From: Mobula hypostoma
Taxonomy: Eukaryota
Length of the DNA: 64,000 nucleotides
Reading direction: 5' to 3'
Assembly: GCF_963921235.1 (NCBI RefSeq)
Contig: NC_086097.1
Location: 70,620,001-70,684,000, forward strand
The notes under the pieces are model-generated. The model had not been told where the DNA came from. It made no database searches and worked only from the letters and a program-made list of their open reading frames with translations. This document shows, in pieces, positions 4,495 through 58,337 of this stretch. Both the position numbers and the translations under genes were made by a program. How positions within the stretch are numbered: position 1 is the stretch's first letter; the number at the start of each line of letters is the position of its first letter.

Positions 4495-5270
4495 TGATAT
4501 CTGGAATCTGTCAAGTAGGGTACTGTGCACAATTCTGATTTGATGGAGACAGATGTGAGAGTATGGAGAAACATCTCGAGAAACTTCTGAAGTGCCCGCT
4601 TTGCTGCCGCTACTACTGCGTGGTAACCGGAATCTCTGGAGCAGAAGGCCCCGAATCCTCGGCTTTGCTTGTTTCAGTGGCTGGGGCGAGGTCGAAGGCG
4701 CTCGGGAGGCTGTATCAGAGGGACTGGTCTGAGGCTCACACATCAAAGTTGCTGGTGAATGCAGCAGGCCAGACAGCATCTCTAGGAAAGCGGTACAGTC
4801 GACATTCCAGACCAAGACCCTTCGTCAGGACACCAGCAACTTTGATGTGTGTTGCTTGAATTTCCAGCATCTGCAGAATTCCTGTGGTCTGAGGCTCGAA
4901 GTGTTCGGATGGACGGACTCAGTGTCGGCTGTGGCCGGGTGCTTCCAATGCATCGGCAAGTTAATGATGCCTGGAGGTTTATGGCAGGGAGTTTCTCCCT
5001 TTTACCGCCTACTATCAGGGTCTTGGGAGTCGATCGGGAGTTGAGACTTTTTTTTACCGTGCCCATAGTTTGTTCTTTATCAAATTATGGTATCGCTTTG
5101 CACTGCTGTAACTATATGTTATAATTATGTGGTTCTGCCAGTGTTAGTCTTTGGTTTGTCCTGTTTTTCTGTGATACCACTCTGGAGGAACATTGTATAA
5201 TTTCTTAGTGCATGTATGCATTTCTAAATGACAATAAAAGAGGACTGAGTGTTCTCATAATCTAATCTAA
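4495..5270 (+). mobile_element. Non-autonomous retroposon (family copy 1, 5'-truncated), interrupted by the Penelope mini-insertion at 4738-4884
   Basis: Colinear with 30312-30948; ends aataaaagaggactgagtgttctc plus (atcta)n. Confidence 0.85.
4738..4884. mobile_element. Penelope-derived mini-element (inverted pLTR pieces) with 13-bp TSD
   Basis: TSD tggtctgaggctc at 4725-4737 and 4885-4897; internal inverted repeat cacacatcaaagttgctggtg / caccagcaactttgatgtgtg. Confidence 0.85.
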
Positions 5271-6280: not shown

Positions 6281-9200
6281 AAGTCCGTGAGCCAGGACCC
6301 CAAATTTGGGCCACCGGTACCATCTGGGGGGAATAATTCTTATAGTGATTTTTGGCAAGGTATACACCCCTAGAGCTAGAAAATATATGATAGAACTGCA
6401 ACGGTGGTAGCTTTCTGTGTGGTATCACTCGATTTATAACCCTATGCCAAAACACCCTTTTCAAAACTATACGTAGCACAGAATAAAGCATTCTACTTCA
6501 AACTGATGGTTCTCTCTTATTATTGATGCTTTGTCTTTGAAAATTGGTGGGAATATAGCTCAGACTAATGTTTTTCAGGAAAGTTGTTAAAATTAGTATC
6601 TATACAAATATTATCTATGACTGGCACTGACAACACAGTGACTATACATTACATAAGAAGTACTTCTGTTTTTGTGTTCTGTTTCACATTTATATCTTGT
6701 ATATCACCATTTATATATACATTTATATCACCTTTGCAGCAGGTGCTTTTTTCAACAGCAATGTTAATGTGATTTTTTTTTCTGTTTCAGGTACTGTGGT
6801 AGTGGGATAGTCCTGCACAATAAAGGAGAGAGAAGAGTAGAGTAGGTTTAGATCTGGAGTAGCTGAATCAGTTTGCTTCAGAATGGAGAGCCATAAGCAC
6901 TAAGAATCTATTTAAGAAGCAGTGTATCATACACTGGAAAACATCAAAAGAAGATGATGACCATTTAGTTAGTCCTCAATATATGAATCCTGGAAAACAT
7001 TACTTGAAGCAGCCAAAGTGAGAAACTATGCCCCTATTTTAGACGTTGCTAAAGAACTTGGAGAAAAAGGAGTCCCAAGAATCTACTATCACCGAAAATG
7101 CCAAAGCCTCTTCACCATGAAGAGAGACTTAGACTCTGAAAAGGAAAGCCAAGGAAAGCATTACTGATGAAGCTGGTGAGACTACCTGTACATCAAAAAG
7201 GCCAAGTAGGAGATCTTCATTGGAAGCAAGGGTGTATGATCAAATCTACATTTTTTTTTGTAATAAGGTGAAATTTCTGAAGGGCTCCAAGTCACGTGAA
7301 AAGCTCACACATGCTCTGCAACTCAGACCTGACCAAACACTACGGGAAGGTGCAACCCAAAAGGAAGATGAAGAGATTCTAGCAGTAACAAGCAGAGACA
7401 TAGTTGCTGCAGAGGCCCACTATCATGTTTCATGCTATAAGGATTATACCAGAATCAAGAAAAAGGAACCTGAGTACAAAGAGAATGATGATGAAAAAGA
7501 TGGTGATGAACTGTATAAAAGGATTGAAAGGAAAGCCTATAAAGACCTTTTCAAGTATATCAGAACTGATATCATACCCAACAAGATGATTGTACAAGTC
7601 GCTTCTTTGGTCACGAAACTTGAATCTTTCATACTATCTGGTGGAGTTACTCTCCTGCAAGATTCTACAAGGAAGCACATTTGTAGGAATCTGAGCTGGG
7701 CAATTCAGTAGATATATTTCCAGATGACAAAAGAAAATTGTTAATGGTTCCTGAAAGAGTATCATTAAGGGACGTTGTTTTGGAAAATCAAACTCTACAG
7801 AGGGAACTCAAAGTTTGGAGGGCCAAGGCAACCAATTTCAACAAGATCATAGATCAGACTTCATCACAAGGCCCTGTCCACACCAGGAGGATTTCTGAGA
7901 AAGACAAATAAAGCTACTTTAGCCACAGCCTTGCAGAAAAATGTAGCAGTAGAAGAGCAACTCCCAGGAAACTCTGCTACAGTGGTTGATGGAATGAACT
8001 TGGTCCAAAGAGTGAAGAGTGATTAAGTTACTTTCAGAGATGTTGCCACAACAATTCTAGGTATGGCTCTGAGGGAAGGCAGTCGGAGTAGCAGAATAGA
8101 TGTTGTGTTCGACACATACAAGGAGAACGCTATCAAGAATAGTGAAAGATTTCTACGGGGTGAAGAGACTGGTCATGAGTTGCAAGGCATCACAGGCACA
8201 CAGATGGTGAGGCAGTGGAGGAGCTTCCTGACCAAAGTCAGTAACAAAAATAGTCTCATTAGCTTCATAGTCCATGAATGGAGGAAGGCGGAGTACAGGG
8301 CAAAGCTACAGGAGAAGATTCTGTATGCAACTGTGAATGACAAATGTTACAGAATTACATCTCGAGACAGCGAGGAGGTGTCAGCTCTTCAGTGTCAACA
8401 AGAAGAAGCAGATGGCTGCCTACTTCTCCATGCTTCCCATGCCACAACAGAGGAGATACCAATCTGTAGTGATCTGCTCAGAAGACACAGACGTCTTTAT
8501 CATGTCTTTAGCATTTTGTGAGAAGATTGAGGCCCCATTGTTCCAGAAGGGTGGCACTAGAACCCATACAAGGCTGGTAGACATCAGGAAGGTTGCTGCC
8601 ACTGTTGGCATAGAGGTTTGTAGGGCTCTCATCGGGTTGCTCGCATATACAAGATGTGACACTGTAAGCGCTTTTGCAGGCAAAAGGAAGACAAGTGCCC
8701 TAAAACTTCTGACCAGCAACAGGGAAACTCAGGACACATTCTTAGAGTTGGGTCAGAAATGGGACCTCTCTGCGGAACTGATGGACAAACTGGAGGCATT
8801 TACATGTCTCCTGTATGCCCCAAAAGCATCAACCACCAAGGTCAATGAGCTCAGGTATCACCTTTTCTCTGCCAAAAATGGTGAAATCGAAAGTCATCAA
8901 CTCTCACCATGCAAGGACTGCTTAACAAAACATGTACAGCGAGCCAACTACCAGGCTAGTATATGGAGAAGATGTATGGAGAAGATGTTTGGAGAAGGAC
9001 CCACAAGTGCCAAGCCCTGTTGGCAGAGGATGGAAGATGGAGAGAGAAGAGGAAGCTGAACAGTTGGTGGTGCACTGGATGGAAGGCCAACAAGCACCCG
9101 ATGCTGTCCAGGATCTACTGGCCTGTAACTGTCCAAAAAAAATGTTCACTCCCAAGATGTATGCGTGTGGCAAATGGCCTCAGGTGTACTGACATGTGTA

Positions 9201-13080: not shown

Positions 13081-13292
13081 AATGTGAAAACAGACAATGC
13101 TCAACATACTCAGCAGGTCAGGCAGCATCTGAGAAGAGAAAAGCAGAGTTACAATCAGGAATTACGATCTTTCATTCAAATTGAAAAAGTTAGAAGTCAA
13201 ACAGTTTAAATTGTAGAGAAGAAGGAGGGGTGGGAATGGAGGGAATGTTGGTTTCTGGGTGGAGATCGAGGGAGACTGACTGATAATATCAT

Positions 13293-13457
13293 AAACACAG
13301 ATTCTGCAGATGCTGGAAATCTTGAGCAACACACACAAAATGCTGGAGGAACTCAACAAGTCTTCATCAGGTCTCAGCCCAAATCGTCAATTGTTTATTC
13401 CCCTCCATAGATTCCGCCTGACTTGTTGATTTCCTCCAGCATTTTGTGTGTGTTGCA
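13293..13457. mobile_element. Penelope-derived mini-element (inverted pLTR pieces), older copy
   Basis: gcaacacacacaaaatgctggagga ... tcctccagcattttgtgtgtgttgc inverted arms; decayed ribozyme-like core in between. Confidence 0.75.
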
Positions 13458-17245: not shown

Positions 17246-18044
17246 AATTTGGAATAGGGAATAAATATGGCTTCACCAGCTGTGTTACCATTGCACAAAG
17301 AACAAATAAAATAAAAGAGCAAGTCCTTTTATGAACCTGAGTGGTATTTCATTGCCAAGTAGTTCAGAGAGCAATGTCGGCAGCCACTTCACCTCTCATG
17401 GTCTCTAAAAAAAAGCAGCTGATTAGACTTAGAGGTGAAAACGTCCAGGCTTTCACCAAGAAATACAATGGCAAGAAACATTAGGCACCCAAACACTACA
17501 GATCTTTGTTAAAATAATGAAGTTTGTGTAAACAATATTCTTGCCAAAGCTTCATAATAGCTACCTCATAAACCTGAAATTTTCCAAGAGAATTTTAACT
17601 GTGCCAAAGAGTGGACTCAATGTGTTGATGTTCAACTGAATGCCAGCTATCAACAGGGAAGTATATGAAAGCTTGCACCAGCAACCGTTAACCCTGAGAC
17701 TTCCGGCACATTTCTGTGTAGATATGTTGAGCAGTGTGCTTTGGCATAAAATACCAAGGGAGTTTCAGGGATTGCCAATCCATAATTATTTGTGAACACA
17801 GGCTACAGGTCAGGTAGTCACATATGGCGTGATTTACTTTTTAAAAAGCAGATTAAGTTCTTTAGTCTATCTGAGGTGGAAGTATCATATAGCCTAATTT
17901 TAAAAAGCCATATTTATGACCCATGGTGGATTTTTCTTCTTTATTCTCTTCAGTCTACATTAGCATTACATATCGTGTTAGAATAGTCAATCAATGTAGA
18001 ATGGCATTTTGTCCATGTTGTGAACAATAGATTAAATAAAAACA

Positions 18045-18259
18045 AAAACAACAGGAATTCTGCAGATGCTGGAAATTCAAGCAACACACATCAAAGTTGC
18101 TGGTGAACGCAGCAGGCCAGGCAGCATCTGTAGGAAGAGGTGCAGTCGACGTTTCAGGCCGAGACCCTTCGTCAGGACTTCATTAGTCCTCTTCCTACAC
18201 CTCTTCCTACAGATGCTGCCTGGCCTGCTGCGTTCACCAGCAACTTTGATGTGTGTTGC
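18045..18259. mobile_element. Young Penelope-derived mini-element with perfect inverted arms and 13-bp TSD
   Basis: TSD ttaaataaaaaca at 18032-18044 and 18260-18272; arms 18081-18140 and 18200-18259 are exact reverse complements. Confidence 0.88.
18144..18179 (-). ncRNA. Minimal hammerhead ribozyme motif (Penelope-associated type)
   Basis: Minus strand: AGUC-CUGACGA-AGG(GUCUCGG)CCU-GAAAC-GUC^GACU. Conserved CUGANGA and GAAA cores, stem II AGG/CCU, stem I AGUC/GACU, palindromic ACGU stem III, GUC cleavage triplet. Confidence 0.7.
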
Positions 18260-18682
18260 TTAAATAAAAACATCTAGTTTTTGGAGTTTGTGCCACTTCT
18301 AATAAGCACTGAGTAACTGTGGATGCTCCGCAGAGTTTTGGTCCACGGACTGCCAAATTTTACAGTCACTGCTGACGTGAAGAAAGTGTGAATCACACCC
18401 GAGGAAAGTAAACTCCTTCTGTATTGTGAAGACAAAAGTTGGCATTACAGCCAGATCTCTTCTCCCTCCCATTCCCTTTGGAGGTGTGATTGAAAACTTA
18501 CTCTGGAGTGCAGAACTCTGACCTTTATCTCAAAAAAGTGGGACATTAATAACCTTAAAATGACAATGTGACAATAACGTCAATAAGGATACTTTGTTAG
18601 AACTTGTAAGACATTTTGTAATTTATTGTTGTCTGATTTGGAAGTTCTAGAATTGTTTTACCTGTTGGCAGTTACTACTATC

Positions 18683-34699: not shown

Positions 34700-36131
34700 C
34701 TTAGAAACATAGAAACATAGAAAATCTACAGCACAATACAGGCCCTTCGGCCCACAAAGTTGTGCCGAACATGTCCCTACCTTAGAAATTTACTAGGCTT
34801 ACCAATAGCCCTCTAGTTTTCTGAGCTCCATGTACTTATCGAAAAGTCTCTTAAAAGACCCTATCGTATCTGCCTCCACCACCGTTGCCGGCTGCCCATT
34901 CCACGCACTCACCACTGTCTGCGTAAAAAACTTACCCCTGACATCTCTTCTGTACCTGCTCCCAAGCATCTTAAACCTATGTCCTCTTATGGCAACCATT
35001 TCAGCCCTGGGAAAAAGCCTCTGACTATCCACACGATCAATGCCTCTCATCATCTTATACACCTCTATCAGGTCACCTCTCATCCTCCACCACTCCAAGG
35101 AGAAAAGGCCAAGTTCAGTCAATCTATCCTCATAAGGCATGCTGCCCAATTCAGGCAGCATTCTTCTAAATCTCCTCTGCACACTTTCTATGATTTCCAC
35201 ATCGTTCATGTAGTGAGGCGACCAGAACTGAGCACAATGCTCCAAGTGTGGTCTGACCAGGGTCCTATATAGCTGCAACATTACCTCTCGGCTCCTAAAT
35301 TCAATTCCACGATTGATGAAGGCCAATACACCATATGCCACTGTGGTAAACCATATATATATGCTGTAACTTGGTTACCTGTCTGGACACACCCCTCTGC
35401 TGACTACCCCTGTGGCTCCTCCCACTGAGTCCTGTATAAAGGTATTCGCCTTGCCCCTCCCCTCAGTCCGGGGGCAGACACTCACTGTGGAGGTCGTATT
35501 GTACAGCGAATAAAAGCCTTTCAGTATTTTACCAAACCTCAGTCTTTTGGAGTAATTGAAGGTGCTTCAATTTTATTCGCTGTACAATACGACCTCCACA
35601 GTGAGTGTCTGCCCCCGGACTGAGGGGGAGGGGCAAGGCGAACACCTTTATACAGGACTCTGTGGGAGGAGCCACAGGGGCAGTCAGCAGAGGGGTGTGT
35701 CCAGACAGGTAACCGAGTTACAACATATATACATGGTTTACCACAGCCACCTTAACCACAGAGTCAACCCGTGCAACTGCTTTGAGTGTCCTATGGACTC
35801 GGATCCCAAGATCTCTCTGATCCTCCACACTGCCAAGAGTCTTACCATTAATAATATATTCTGCAATCATATTTGACCTACCAAAATGAACCACTTCACA
35901 CTTATCTGGGTTGAACTCCATCTGCCACTTCTCAGCCCAGTTTTACATCCTATCAATGTCCCACTGTAACCTCTGACAGCCCTCCACACTATCCACAACA
36001 CCTCCAACCTTTGTGGCATCAGCAAACTTACTAACCCATCCCTCCACTTCCTCATCCAGGTCATTTATAAAAATCACGAGGAGTGAGGGTCCCAGAACAG
36101 ATCCTTGAGACACACCACTGGTCACCGACTT
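34700..36131 (-). mobile_element. CR1 LINE 3' portion, interrupted by a fold-back element
   Basis: ORFs TSGVSQGSVLGP..KFADATK, MEFNPDKCEVVHFG, YRTLVRPHLEHCAQFWSP..FFTQTVVSAWN; (tttctatg)n tail at about 34702-34722. Confidence 0.93.
35342..35745. mobile_element. LTR-derived fold-back element (LTR-like unit plus inverted 5' copy) with 5-bp TSD
   Basis: TSD gccac at 35337-35341 and 35746-35750; ends tgtgg...ccaca; arms 35342-35515 and 35571-35745 are near-perfect reverse complements around a 55-bp spacer; tataaa and aataaa within the arm. Confidence 0.88.
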
Positions 36132-43117: not shown

Positions 43118-44712
43118 ATGAAGCAAAGAGCTAAGAGGTTGATTGGTGAAAGAAACAGAAGGCCATGGAAGAAAGAAAAAAAGGTGGTGGGAAGGATACC
43201 AGAGGGAGGTGGTGGGCGGGCAAGGAGATAACATGAGAGATGGACAAAGGGATGAGAAATGGTGAAGGGGAGTGGTGGAGGTATTACTGGAAGTTTGAGA
43301 AATCGATGTTCATTCCATCAGGTTGGAGTTTATCCAAATGTGTTGTTCGGTCAATCTAACTGTGGCCTTAATACGACAGTGGAGGAGGCCATGGATGGAC
43401 ATATCGGAATGGGAATATGAAGTGGAATTAAAATGGGTGGCCACCGTGAGATCCTGCTTGTTCTGGCAGATGGAGTGTAGATGCTTAGTGAAGCGTCTCC
43501 CAATCTATGTAAGGTCTCACCAATATACAAGAGGCCACGCTGGGAACACCAAACACAGTGTATGACCCCAACAGACTCACGGGTGAAGTGTCACCTCACC
43601 TGGAAGGACGGTTTGAGGCCCTAAATGGTAGTGAGGGAGGTGGTGTAGGGGCAGGTGTAGCACTTGTTCTGCTTGCAAGGGTAAGTGCCAGGAGGGAGAT
43701 CAGTGGGGAGGGAACAAATGAACAGGGAGTCGCGTAGGGAGTGATCCCTGCGGAAAGCAGAAAGTGAGGGGGAGGGAAAGATGTGCTTGGTGGTGGGATC
43801 CATTTGGAGGTGGTGGATGATTTGGAAAATTATGTGCTGGACGTGGAGGTTGGTGGGGTGGCAGGTGAGGACAAGAGGAACCCTATCCCTGGTAGCGTGG
43901 CGGGAGGATGGGGTAAGAGCAGACGTGCATGAAATGGAAGAGGGCAGCGTTGATGTTGGAGGAAGGGAAGCCCCTTTCTTTGAAAAAGGATAATGTCTCC
44001 TTTATTCTAGAATGAAAGCCTCATCCATAGAGCAGATGTGGTGGGGATGGAGGAATTGAGAGAAGGAGATGGCATTTTTACAAGTAGTAGGGTGGGATGA
44101 TGTATAGTCCAGGTAGCTGTGAGCGTCCATTGGTTCATAATAGACATCAGAGGATAAGCTGTTTCCAGAGATAGAGACAGTGAAATCAAGAAAGGGAAGT
44201 GTCGGATTGTGGACCAGGTGAACTTGAGGGCAGGGTGGAAGTTGGAGATGAAGTGGATGAAACTGACGAGTCCGCAGGGGTGCAGAAAGCAGCGCCAAAG
44301 CAGTCATTGATGTAGCATAGGAAGAGTGTGGGACTGTCACCAGTGTAGGCTTGGAAAATGGGCTGTTCCACGTAGCCAACAAACAGGCAGGCATAGCTGG
44401 GACCCATGCGAGTTCCCGTGGCTACTCCTTTTGTTTGAAGGAAGTGGATGGATGGACCCAAAGGAGAAATTATTTGGAGTGAGGACAAGTTCTGCTAGGT
44501 GGAGGACAGTGGTAGTGGAGGGGAACTGGTTGCGTCTGGTGTCCAGAAAGAAACGGAGAGCTTTGAGGCCCTCCTGGTAGGAATGGAGGTGTATATGGAC
44601 TGGACATACACAGTAAAAATAAGGTAAAGGGGGTCAGGGAACTGGCCTGAGTTCCTCCAGCATTTTTGGGTGTTGCTCGGATTTCTAGCATCTGCAGATT
44701 TTCTCTTGTTTG
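43118..44712 (-). mobile_element. Penelope-like element (RT and GIY-YIG endonuclease), degenerate, with inverted pLTR piece at its 5' junction
   Basis: RT motifs LIFTVYVQSIYTSIP, FLQTKGVATGTRMGPSYACLF, FLCYINDCF, LPFLD, HSYLDYTSSHP; linker PGTYPCKQNKCYTC; GVIHCVWCSQRGLLYIGET (GIY-YIG) at about 43513-43569; pLTR-type sequence on the opposite strand at 44645-44712. Confidence 0.9.
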
Positions 44713-54250: not shown

Positions 54251-54414
54251 CAAATAAGAGAAAATCTGCAGATGCTGGAATTCCGAGCAATGCACACAAA
54301 ATGCCAGAGGAACTCAACTGGCCGGGCAGCATCTATGGAAAATAGGAAACAGTCGACGACTTGGGCTGAGACCCTTCATCTGGACCCTTCATGAGTCCTG
54401 ATGAAGGGTCTCAG
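54251..54414. mobile_element. Penelope-derived mini-element inside a Rex 3' UTR remnant (about 54045-54570)
   Basis: aaatctgcagatgctggaa...gaggaactc...; inverted 20-mer ctgagacccttcatctggac / gtcctgatgaagggtctcag. Confidence 0.75.
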
Positions 54415-57715: not shown

Positions 57716-57736
57716 TTCTTTCACTGCTGAAATTTG

Positions 57737-57867
57737 GTCCTGATGAAGGGTCTTGGCCTAAAACATTGATTGTACTCTTTTCCAGAGATGCTGCCTGGTC
57801 TGCTGAGTTCCTCCAGCTGCTTGTGTGCATTGCTTTGGATTTCCAGCATCTGCAATTTTCTCATGTT
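57737..57867 (+). mobile_element. Penelope pLTR copy with decayed hammerhead motif
   Basis: gtcCTGATGAagggtcttggcctAAAAcattgat (GAAA and GTC lost, consistent with CpG decay) followed by gatgctgcctgg...ttccagcatctgca. Confidence 0.78.
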
Positions 57868-58210: not shown

Positions 58211-58337
58211 AGGGGTCTCGGCCTGAAACGTCAACTGTACCTCTTCCTATAGATGCTGCCTGGCCTGCTGCGTTCACCAGCAACTTTTATATGTGTTGCT
58301 TGAAATTCCAGCATCTGCAGATTTCCTCGTGTTTGCG
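58211..58337 (+). mobile_element. Penelope pLTR copy, 5'-truncated within the hammerhead motif
   Basis: ggggtctcggcctgaaacgtcaactg...ccagcatctgcagatttcctcgtgtttg; near-identical to the reverse complement of 18050-18170. Confidence 0.82.

What the first reader, a model, noticed from the sequence alone, without database searches (positions are those of the whole stretch)
18032..18272. Tiny mobile hairpin carrying an intact minimal hammerhead ribozyme
Seen: a 215-bp insert with a 13-bp TSD and perfect 60-bp inverted arms. Its loop carries, on the minus strand, AGUC CUGACGA AGG-GUCUCGG-CCU GAAAC GUC^GACU with all catalytic core nucleotides. Stem III is only the palindrome ACGU. Known: Penelope-like elements carry minimal hammerheads in their terminal repeats, and hammerheads with such a short stem III are thought to cleave as dimers. 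Inference: this is a young non-autonomous ribozyme-bearing Penelope derivative, and transcription through it could give self-cleaving or double-stranded RNA.
Basis: partly seen in the sequence, partly recalled or inferred. Interest (0 to 1): 0.7.

Follow-up and report, generated by a model that had tools for sequence, protein, structure and literature searches.

The report
Two-armed stub of Penelope-like retrotransposon
This 215-base hairpin with a ribozyme motif is real, but it is one of tens of thousands of cut-short ends of a protein-coding Penelope-like jumping gene, likely built afresh at this site from two short DNA copies of the front of the element's RNA, so the single copy is ordinary while the family likely records how these elements insert.

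Summary
Confirmed: 13-bp TSD, 215-bp insert, 62-bp perfect arms, complete minimal hammerhead on the minus strand. Not supported: a self-propagating non-autonomous element. The insert is the 3' end of an autonomous Penelope-like element (Neptune-type linker motif; 1016-aa RT/GIY-YIG ORF in sister copies). The tail has 30,109 exact matches and the hammerhead 35,718. Of 170 sampled copies, 85 are two-armed, with 82 different junction pairs and never two tails; this copy's junction 19-mer occurs 5 times, each continuing differently. This is the known inverted-pLTR-plus-tail architecture. Family-level result: 88 of 207 arms that reach the hammerhead's 5' half end there (peak at the first bases of stem I), but only 2 of 34 long copies stop there on a second pass. 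That fits run-off from an RNA 5' end plus a separate circular or tandem template. No sign of run-off at the cleavage site in single-arm copies (0 events). The monomer is predicted to misfold; cleavage and transcription are untested. This scan has reported the twin-primed, run-off reading before on other genomes (26 notes, at least 12 genomes).

The parts
18032..18044 (+). left target-site duplication (13 bp, AT-rich)
   Evidence: family TSDs are 13-15 bp in 95 of 129 copies with a TSD call, 69% A+T
18046..18179 (-). tail-bearing arm: 3' end of the parent's pLTR (reference 4669-4802), 5'-truncated exactly at the first base of hammerhead stem I
   Evidence: 97-98% identical to both pLTRs of ORF-intact copy L238; mapped
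18046..18080 (-). one-sided ~35-bp 'tail' between the two likely reverse-transcription start points
   Evidence: absent from the second arm in 85 of 85 two-armed copies; described in PMC8557442 and PMC11167929
18144..18179 (-). minimal type-I hammerhead motif; predicted scissile bond after 18148; G10.1-U11.1 wobble in place of the usual G-C
   Evidence: the 35-mer has 35,718 exact genomic matches
18180..18197 (+). junction filler of short parent-matching pieces (includes reference 4667-4674 in sense, and creates the 12-bp tandem repeat 18188-18211)
   Evidence: the junction 19-mer has 5 genomic matches, and the other 4 continue differently
18198..18259 (+). second, inverted arm (reference 4706-4767), tail-less and without the hammerhead
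   Evidence: 79 of 85 second arms have their 3' end at reference 4757-4779
18260..18272 (+). right target-site duplication

Best explanation
The insert is a 5'-truncated, two-armed copy of the end of an autonomous, hammerhead-bearing Penelope-like retrotransposon, likely made in one insertion event in which both nicked target strands primed reverse transcription on the same RNA and the two short cDNAs were joined head to head. Steps. [quoted passage not shown] (2, inferred; matches in vitro work on a lizard PLE) The protein nicks both strands about 13-15 bp apart in AT-rich DNA, giving the TSD. (3, inferred) One strand starts at the tail end and the other about 35 nt further in, giving the one-sided tail. 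(4, pile-up shown, cause inferred) The cDNAs run off an RNA 5' end at the first base of stem I, which could be a transcription start or a nuclease stop. (5, inferred) The cDNA ends are joined through microhomology and templated filler. The hammerhead is a passenger here: selected in the source element and predicted to be inactive alone. The stub likely cannot move again, because it lacks the RNA downstream of the tail. My odds: truncated PLE made anew at insertion 0.95; twin priming 0.75; RNA 5'-end run-off 0.6.
For: Parent: ORFs of 1016, 1042 and 1016 aa without stops in 3 of 8 long copies chosen for holding the ORF's 5' part; RVT_1 E=1.7e-5 and GIY-YIG E=4.3e-4 on a 547-aa piece, both under the curated cut-offs. 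Continuum of truncations and 85 of 170 copies two-armed, with only 3 junction pairs seen twice. Independent priming: the second arm reaches at least 4 nt further 5' than the tail arm in 45 of 85, so each arm holds sequence that the other lacks; 0 of 85 have two tails; 5 of 8 long sense copies end at the second start point, so it also serves as a start for the main strand. Same template: arms agree at 321 of 356 subfamily-diagnostic sites, against a mean of 52% (maximum 64%) in 1000 shuffles. Run-off: 88 arm ends in 3368 exposed nt at reference 4663-4682 (0.026/nt) against 0.0014/nt background; 32 ends at 4668-4670; the pile-up also holds in single-arm copies (22 ends, 1.9 expected); only 2 of 34 long copies stop there on the second pass (Fisher p=1.3e-5). 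Contigs of three public runs from two studies show 45, 33 and 38 loose ends at window 18179. PMC11167929 (text read): two internal RT starts delimit the tail, both strands are nicked and extended, and RNA beyond the starts is required.
Against: No intermediate was seen; everything is read from finished insertions. 19 private changes are mirrored in both arms, which fits DNA-templated copying or gene conversion as well as source variation. A fold-back palindrome that later lost part of its centre would also give unequal arms. The short and long classes were sampled with different patterns (vs 38). A weaker excess of ends (0.008/nt) extends to 4630-4662, so there is no single sharp 5' end. In the 25 copies with a short ORF side, 6 of 16 still stop at 4663-4682. 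The loose ends are junctions of other copies, not RNA ends, and those runs are not on record as RNA.
Confidence: 0.7

Rival explanations
1. Self-priming fold-back: one cDNA (or an antisense template) snaps back on itself and is copied as DNA; later loss of the palindrome's centre makes the arms unequal.
For: PMC3846280 (passages read) interprets palindromes at inverted junctions as self-priming. Arms end within 3 nt of each other in 14 of 85 copies; one copy (L084) joins exactly through the stem I complement. There are 19 mirrored private changes.
Against: It needs secondary deletion in at least the 45 of 85 copies whose second arm reaches further 5'. It does not explain a fixed second 3' end about 35 nt short of the tail, nor why 5 of 8 long sense copies end at that same point. 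Seven second arms start exactly at the first base of stem I after unrelated sequence.
Confidence: 0.18
2. One reading: a small non-autonomous hairpin element (MITE- or retrozyme-like) that is transcribed and re-mobilised as a unit.
For: About 200-bp hairpins with 13-15-bp TSDs are common: 57 of 170 copies have both arms under about 200 nt. A similarity search returns dozens of 87-95% look-alikes. Small tandem arrays with hammerheads exist in the family.
Against: 82 different junction pairs among 85 two-armed copies. This copy's junction 19-mer has 5 matches among more than 30,000 family ends, with different subfamily backgrounds and continuations. Arm lengths run continuously from about 40 bp to over 3 kb.
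Confidence: 0.04
3. The pile-up at the hammerhead's 5' half is an RT stop caused by local structure (a hairpin forming in the new cDNA, a swapped hammerhead dimer between the two pLTRs, or bound protein), not an RNA end.
For: The motif can fold into an extended hairpin whose 5' edge lies at the pile-up. A first-pass-only block, such as a pLTR-pLTR dimer, would also spare the second pass.
Against: A purely sequence-intrinsic stop should act on both passes, yet long copies stop in 2 of 34 against 88 of 207, while rates elsewhere are similar (0.0012-0.0026 vs 0.0013-0.0016/nt). The peak lies after, not before, the 4-bp stem I strand.
Confidence: 0.25
4. This particular copy acts as a host-relevant self-cleaving or dsRNA-producing device.
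For: The core is intact and the arms are perfect; any transcript would fold a 62-bp duplex.
Against: Intactness is expected from youth: 35,718 identical motifs. The monomer prefers a non-catalytic fold (-11.1 kcal/mol for the 39-nt stretch, vs -6.0 for the hammerhead stems on the 36-nt motif), and there is no cis partner. The family has U in place of the conserved C11.1.
Confidence: 0.04

Closest known systems
Insertion units of endonuclease-positive Penelope-like elements with an adjacent inverted 5'-truncated copy and a one-sided 30-40-bp tail (PMC8557442 Fig. 2 legend; Pen2a_Av in PMC3846280)
   Same: Inverted tail-less arm, one-sided 35-bp tail, TSD, 5' truncation, palindromic or microhomology junction, partial-tandem full-length copies.
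   Different: Here the whole unit is only 215 bp; TSDs are 13-15 bp rather than the 8-10 bp of the rotifer examples; ends pile up at the hammerhead's 5' edge, which the passages I read do not describe.
Minimal hammerheads of metazoan PLE pLTRs (PMC4209133)
   Same: Type I, 4-bp stem I, extra base between A9 and 10.1, no loop III, palindromic 15.2/16.2, mostly single dispersed motifs from truncated PLEs, sometimes two on opposite strands.
   Different: G10.1-U11.1 in the young family (232 of 237 copies) in place of the conserved G-C; one motif at 35,718 identical copies, against about 4,000 and 9,000 motifs reported for coelacanth and Xenopus.
PAc (Poseidon of Anolis carolinensis), studied in vitro (PMC11167929)
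   Same: Two internal start points that delimit the tail, both in AC-rich sequence on the cDNA strand; AT-rich targets; hammerhead about 100 nt upstream.
   Different: This parent has the CX2-5CxxC linker (Neptune or Nematis type) and its ATG lies 36 nt past the tail, not inside the hammerhead. That paper does not link two-strand extension to the inverted arm ('inverted' occurs once, in another sense).
Non-LTR retrozymes (10.64898/2026.07.22.740005)
   Same: Non-coding, PLE-pLTR-derived, type I hammerhead.
   Different: Retrozymes are head-to-tail tandem arrays with a hammerhead in consecutive units; this locus is head-to-head with one hammerhead.

Membership tests
EN+ Penelope-like element (parent) | single ORF with RT and C-terminal GIY-YIG carrying two cysteines between GIY and YIG | tested here: met
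   1016-aa ORFs with the VIYCVRCSRCGLLYIG motif near the C-terminus; RVT_1 and GIY-YIG hits below curated cut-offs on the 547-aa piece; only RVT_1 on the whole protein
EN+ Penelope-like element (parent) | pLTRs formed by partial tandem copies | tested here: met
   5' pLTRs of variable length continue into the ORF
EN+ Penelope-like element (insertion) | inverted 5'-truncated copy, one-sided 30-40-bp tail, TSD | tested here: met
Neptune clade | CX2-5CxxC motif upstream of GIY-YIG (absent in Penelope/Poseidon; shared with Nematis) | tested here: met
   CKRNKCYTC in all four long ORFs printed; definition from PMC8557442
Neptune clade | RT phylogeny with reference PLEs | not tested
   no reference set fetched; Nematis not formally excluded
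Minimal type-I hammerhead (min-HHR) | core CUGANGA / GAAA / UH with stems I and II and palindromic 15.2-16.2 | tested here: met
Minimal type-I hammerhead (min-HHR) | G10.1-C11.1 pair | tested here: not met
   G-U in this copy and in 232 of 237 young copies; G-C more frequent in older bins. A typical feature, not part of the catalytic core
Minimal type-I hammerhead (min-HHR) | conservation or covariation across lineages | tested here: inconclusive
   37 copies of an older family differ at 12 positions at >=80% frequency in 4705-4760 and at none in the motif, but no compensatory double change was seen, and hits were selected for covering the motif
Minimal type-I hammerhead (min-HHR) | self-cleavage as dimer or with protein | not testable with these tools
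   fossil proxy: 10 arm ends at 4699-4703 (1.6 expected), but all in two-armed copies at a palindrome; 0 in single-arm copies (0.9 expected at background)
Non-autonomous replicating element (MITE/SINE-like) | many copies sharing the same ends and internal junction | tested here: not met
Non-LTR retrozyme | head-to-tail tandem units, each with a hammerhead | tested here: not met
   one hammerhead, head-to-head arms

The most novel reading that the evidence does not exclude
The family is a fossil record of a two-template PLE cycle. A protein dimer primes both nicked strands at two fixed points 35 nt apart on one RNA. On the linear RNA, whose 5' end is the first base of the hammerhead, both cDNAs run off after 100-135 nt and leave hairpin stubs like this one. 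Full-length partial tandems come from an endless template, a hammerhead-cut and ligated circle or a tandem read-through. This would explain the tail, the inverted arm, the pLTRs and the excess of solo hammerheads in one model.
Probability: 0.4. Interest if true: 0.55.

Novelty: new member of a known kind. Interest (0 to 1): 0.27.

Why it matters
The single locus matters little: it is one of more than 30,000 young ends of one retrotransposon. The family matters because the PLE insertion cycle is still not worked out. The first-pass versus second-pass contrast (88 of 207 vs 2 of 34) makes two concrete predictions that are cheap to test: an RNA 5' end at the first base of stem I, and a circular or tandem template for full-length copies. 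It also warns that such hairpins can be mistaken for MITEs or microRNA precursors (Rfam microRNA hits).

Tried and rejected
Rfam: no hammerhead hit; hairpin-driven microRNA hits under gathering scores were rejected. Poseidon clade (my first label, in notes 27 and 50): dropped after the CX2-5CxxC motif was checked. Run-off from hammerhead-cleaved RNA: a 6-fold excess at 4699-4703, but only in two-armed copies at a palindrome, so not taken as evidence of cleavage. Splicing at the acceptor-like sequence just upstream of stem I: no shared upstream exon among arms ending there, and the peak is 2-3 nt off. Expression and empty site: no RNA holder listed; the unique flanks had no cover in 4 of 4 runs laid, so neither could be tested; contigs cannot show RNA ends. 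PDB search of the ORF: 0 hits. Script errors: mis-oriented loci (redone); the parent-context pair probabilities were off by one (redone); the stem III rows were mis-indexed and are not used. The first 30 loci were chosen by similarity to the query and were left out of all counts. Host-gene context of the locus was not determined. L244 and L245 (window flanks) entered only the pooled alignment.

Full report
Observation. The TSD (18032-18044, 18260-18272), the 215-bp insert and the inverted arms are as described; the perfect run is 62 bp inside the insert. The minus strand carries a full minimal hammerhead at 18179-18144 with the scissile bond after 18148. A loose descriptor finds it once in the window and never in 200 shuffles. 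Rfam does not score it.

What it is. The 36-nt end has 30,109 exact matches in the 3.48-Gb genome and the 35-nt hammerhead has 35,718. Copies taken in positional order extend to any length into a coding element. Of 8 long copies chosen for holding the ORF's 5' part, 3 have stop-free ORFs of 1016-1042 aa with RT and C-terminal GIY-YIG motifs, and the window's tail arm is 97-98% identical to both pLTRs of one of them. The linker CKRNKCYTC fits the CX2-5CxxC motif that PMC8557442 (passages) gives for Neptune and Nematis and not for Penelope/Poseidon; no tree was built. Coordinates below are on the reverse complement of locus L087: 4669 = window 18179 = first base of stem I, cleavage between 4700 and 4701, tail end 4801-4802.

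Sample. 170 copies on contig C1: 90 of the 100 places listed and 80 of the 100 listed (10 dropped as duplicates, 2 tandem neighbours skipped, 8 not fetched). The pattern selects one subfamily and a slightly longer 3' end. 85 of 170 have an inverted second arm (a lower bound, given my detection rule); 129 got a TSD call, 95 of them 13-15 bp; 57 have both arms under about 200 nt. Only 3 junction pairs occur twice. This copy's junction 19-mer has 5 genomic matches, and the other 4 differ in subfamily and continuation. So the hairpin is made anew at insertion and is not a replicating unit. The architecture (inverted truncated copy, one-sided 30-40-bp tail, TSD) is described for EN+ PLEs in PMC8557442 and PMC3846280 (passages).

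How the two arms arise. No second arm carries the tail (0 of 85); 79 of 85 end at 4757-4779. In 45 of 85 the second arm reaches at least 4 nt further 5' than the tail arm, in 26 the reverse, and in 14 they are within 3 nt. The arms agree at 321 of 356 diagnostic sites against 52% in shuffles. Five of 8 long sense copies end at the second point, 2 at the tail, and 1 breaks off earlier. PMC11167929 (parts 1-2 of 4 read) shows for a lizard PLE two internal RT starts that delimit the tail, nicking and extension of both strands, and a need for RNA downstream of the starts. Together these favour twin priming on one RNA (inferred). Against it: 19 mirrored private changes, and self-priming is the published reading of such junctions (PMC3846280).

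Where the arms stop. Arm 5' ends pile up at 4663-4682: 88 events in 3368 exposed nt against 0.0014/nt background, with 32 at 4668-4670; single-arm copies show it too (22 events, 1.9 expected). Both arms stop at the same absolute place although they start 35 nt apart. In 70 of the 351 copies that cross from pLTR into the ORF, the 45 with a long ORF side stop there in 2 of 34 that reach it, against 88 of 207 first-pass arms (Fisher p=1.3e-5); the 25 with a short ORF side stop in 6 of 16. Contigs of public runs X1, X3 and X7 show loose ends at 18179 and 18046, the same two boundaries; these are junctions of other copies, not RNA ends. The simplest reading is run-off from an RNA 5' end at the base of stem I, whose context fits an initiator consensus (consensus recalled, not from a call; D. 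virilis Penelope has an internal promoter, PMC2377424 passages), with long copies coming from circular or tandem templates as proposed in PMC4209133. A first-pass-only structural block is the main rival. A weaker excess at 4630-4662 is unexplained.

The ribozyme. An older family (37 copies under 75% identity) differs at 12 positions at 80% frequency or more just downstream and at none inside the motif; no compensatory change was found, and the hits were selected for covering the motif. The young family has U11.1 in 232 of 237 copies. The monomer prefers a non-catalytic hairpin, and stem I has probability 0.0 in the 215-nt hairpin and at most 0.46 in the parent's run-off unit. PMC4209133 (parts 1-2 of 4 read) found no monomer cleavage and low dimer cleavage; PMC11167929 found cleavage only with protein and no need for it in vitro. 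Arm ends at the cleavage site are 10 (1.6 expected), all in two-armed copies at the palindrome, and 0 in single-arm copies, so there is no fossil evidence of cleavage, though the single-arm test has little power. Transcription of this locus is untested.

Novelty. The architecture and the motif are in print. I did not find the twin-priming or run-off reading for PLEs in six full-text searches; one search returned two papers, seen as listings only; the library lacks most subscription papers, and supplements were not read. The 2026 preprint on animal retrozymes was read in part 1 of 5 and passages. This scan already holds 26 notes in at least 12 genomes with those search words, and the 8 shown give the same twin-primed or run-off reading; none lies near this window. 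My reading was noted before that look-up, and those notes are not independent evidence. Verdict: a new member of a known kind, interest 0.27; the family-level model has probability 0.4 and would merit 0.55.

Noticed in passing
window 4737-4888: Another two-armed stub of the same family: tail arm 4831-4888 (reference 4743-4800), second arm 4737-4831 reaching 4670 and carrying a decayed hammerhead.
   Followed up: partly
window 58213-58334, 57734-57854, 54253-54385, about 13108-13346: Further short pLTR-end copies of the same or older families (73-91% identity); 58213-58334 is also a hairpin.
   Followed up: partly
window 43289-44711 (minus strand): Decayed 1.4-kb RT/endonuclease fragment of an older relative, 78% identical to L087, with a tail-like piece at 44667-44711.
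   Followed up: partly
L298:910-2172; L206:195-1228: Small head-to-tail arrays of pLTR pieces: 310 bp x 4.1 at 99% and about 437 bp x 2.4 at 97%; two motif-matching hammerheads were found in each locus. They resemble non-LTR retrozymes arising from this PLE.
   Followed up: partly
L246, L247, L250, L252, L265, L273 and others: 13 of 25 short copies that cross into the ORF carry 109-181 nt of it, mostly 133-163 nt; this suggests a preferred template-jump point or RNA 3' end about 150 nt past the tail.
   Followed up: no
L087 reverse complement 4645-4666: Acceptor-like sequence (branch-point-like motif, pyrimidine tract, CAG) ends 2 nt before stem I, echoing the D. virilis intron end at helix I (PMC4209133); no spliced cDNA junction was seen.
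   Followed up: partly
window overall: Dense in decayed LINE reverse-transcriptase fragments (read by eye, no family scan) and one possible DNA-transposase remnant at about 7133-9059.
   Followed up: no
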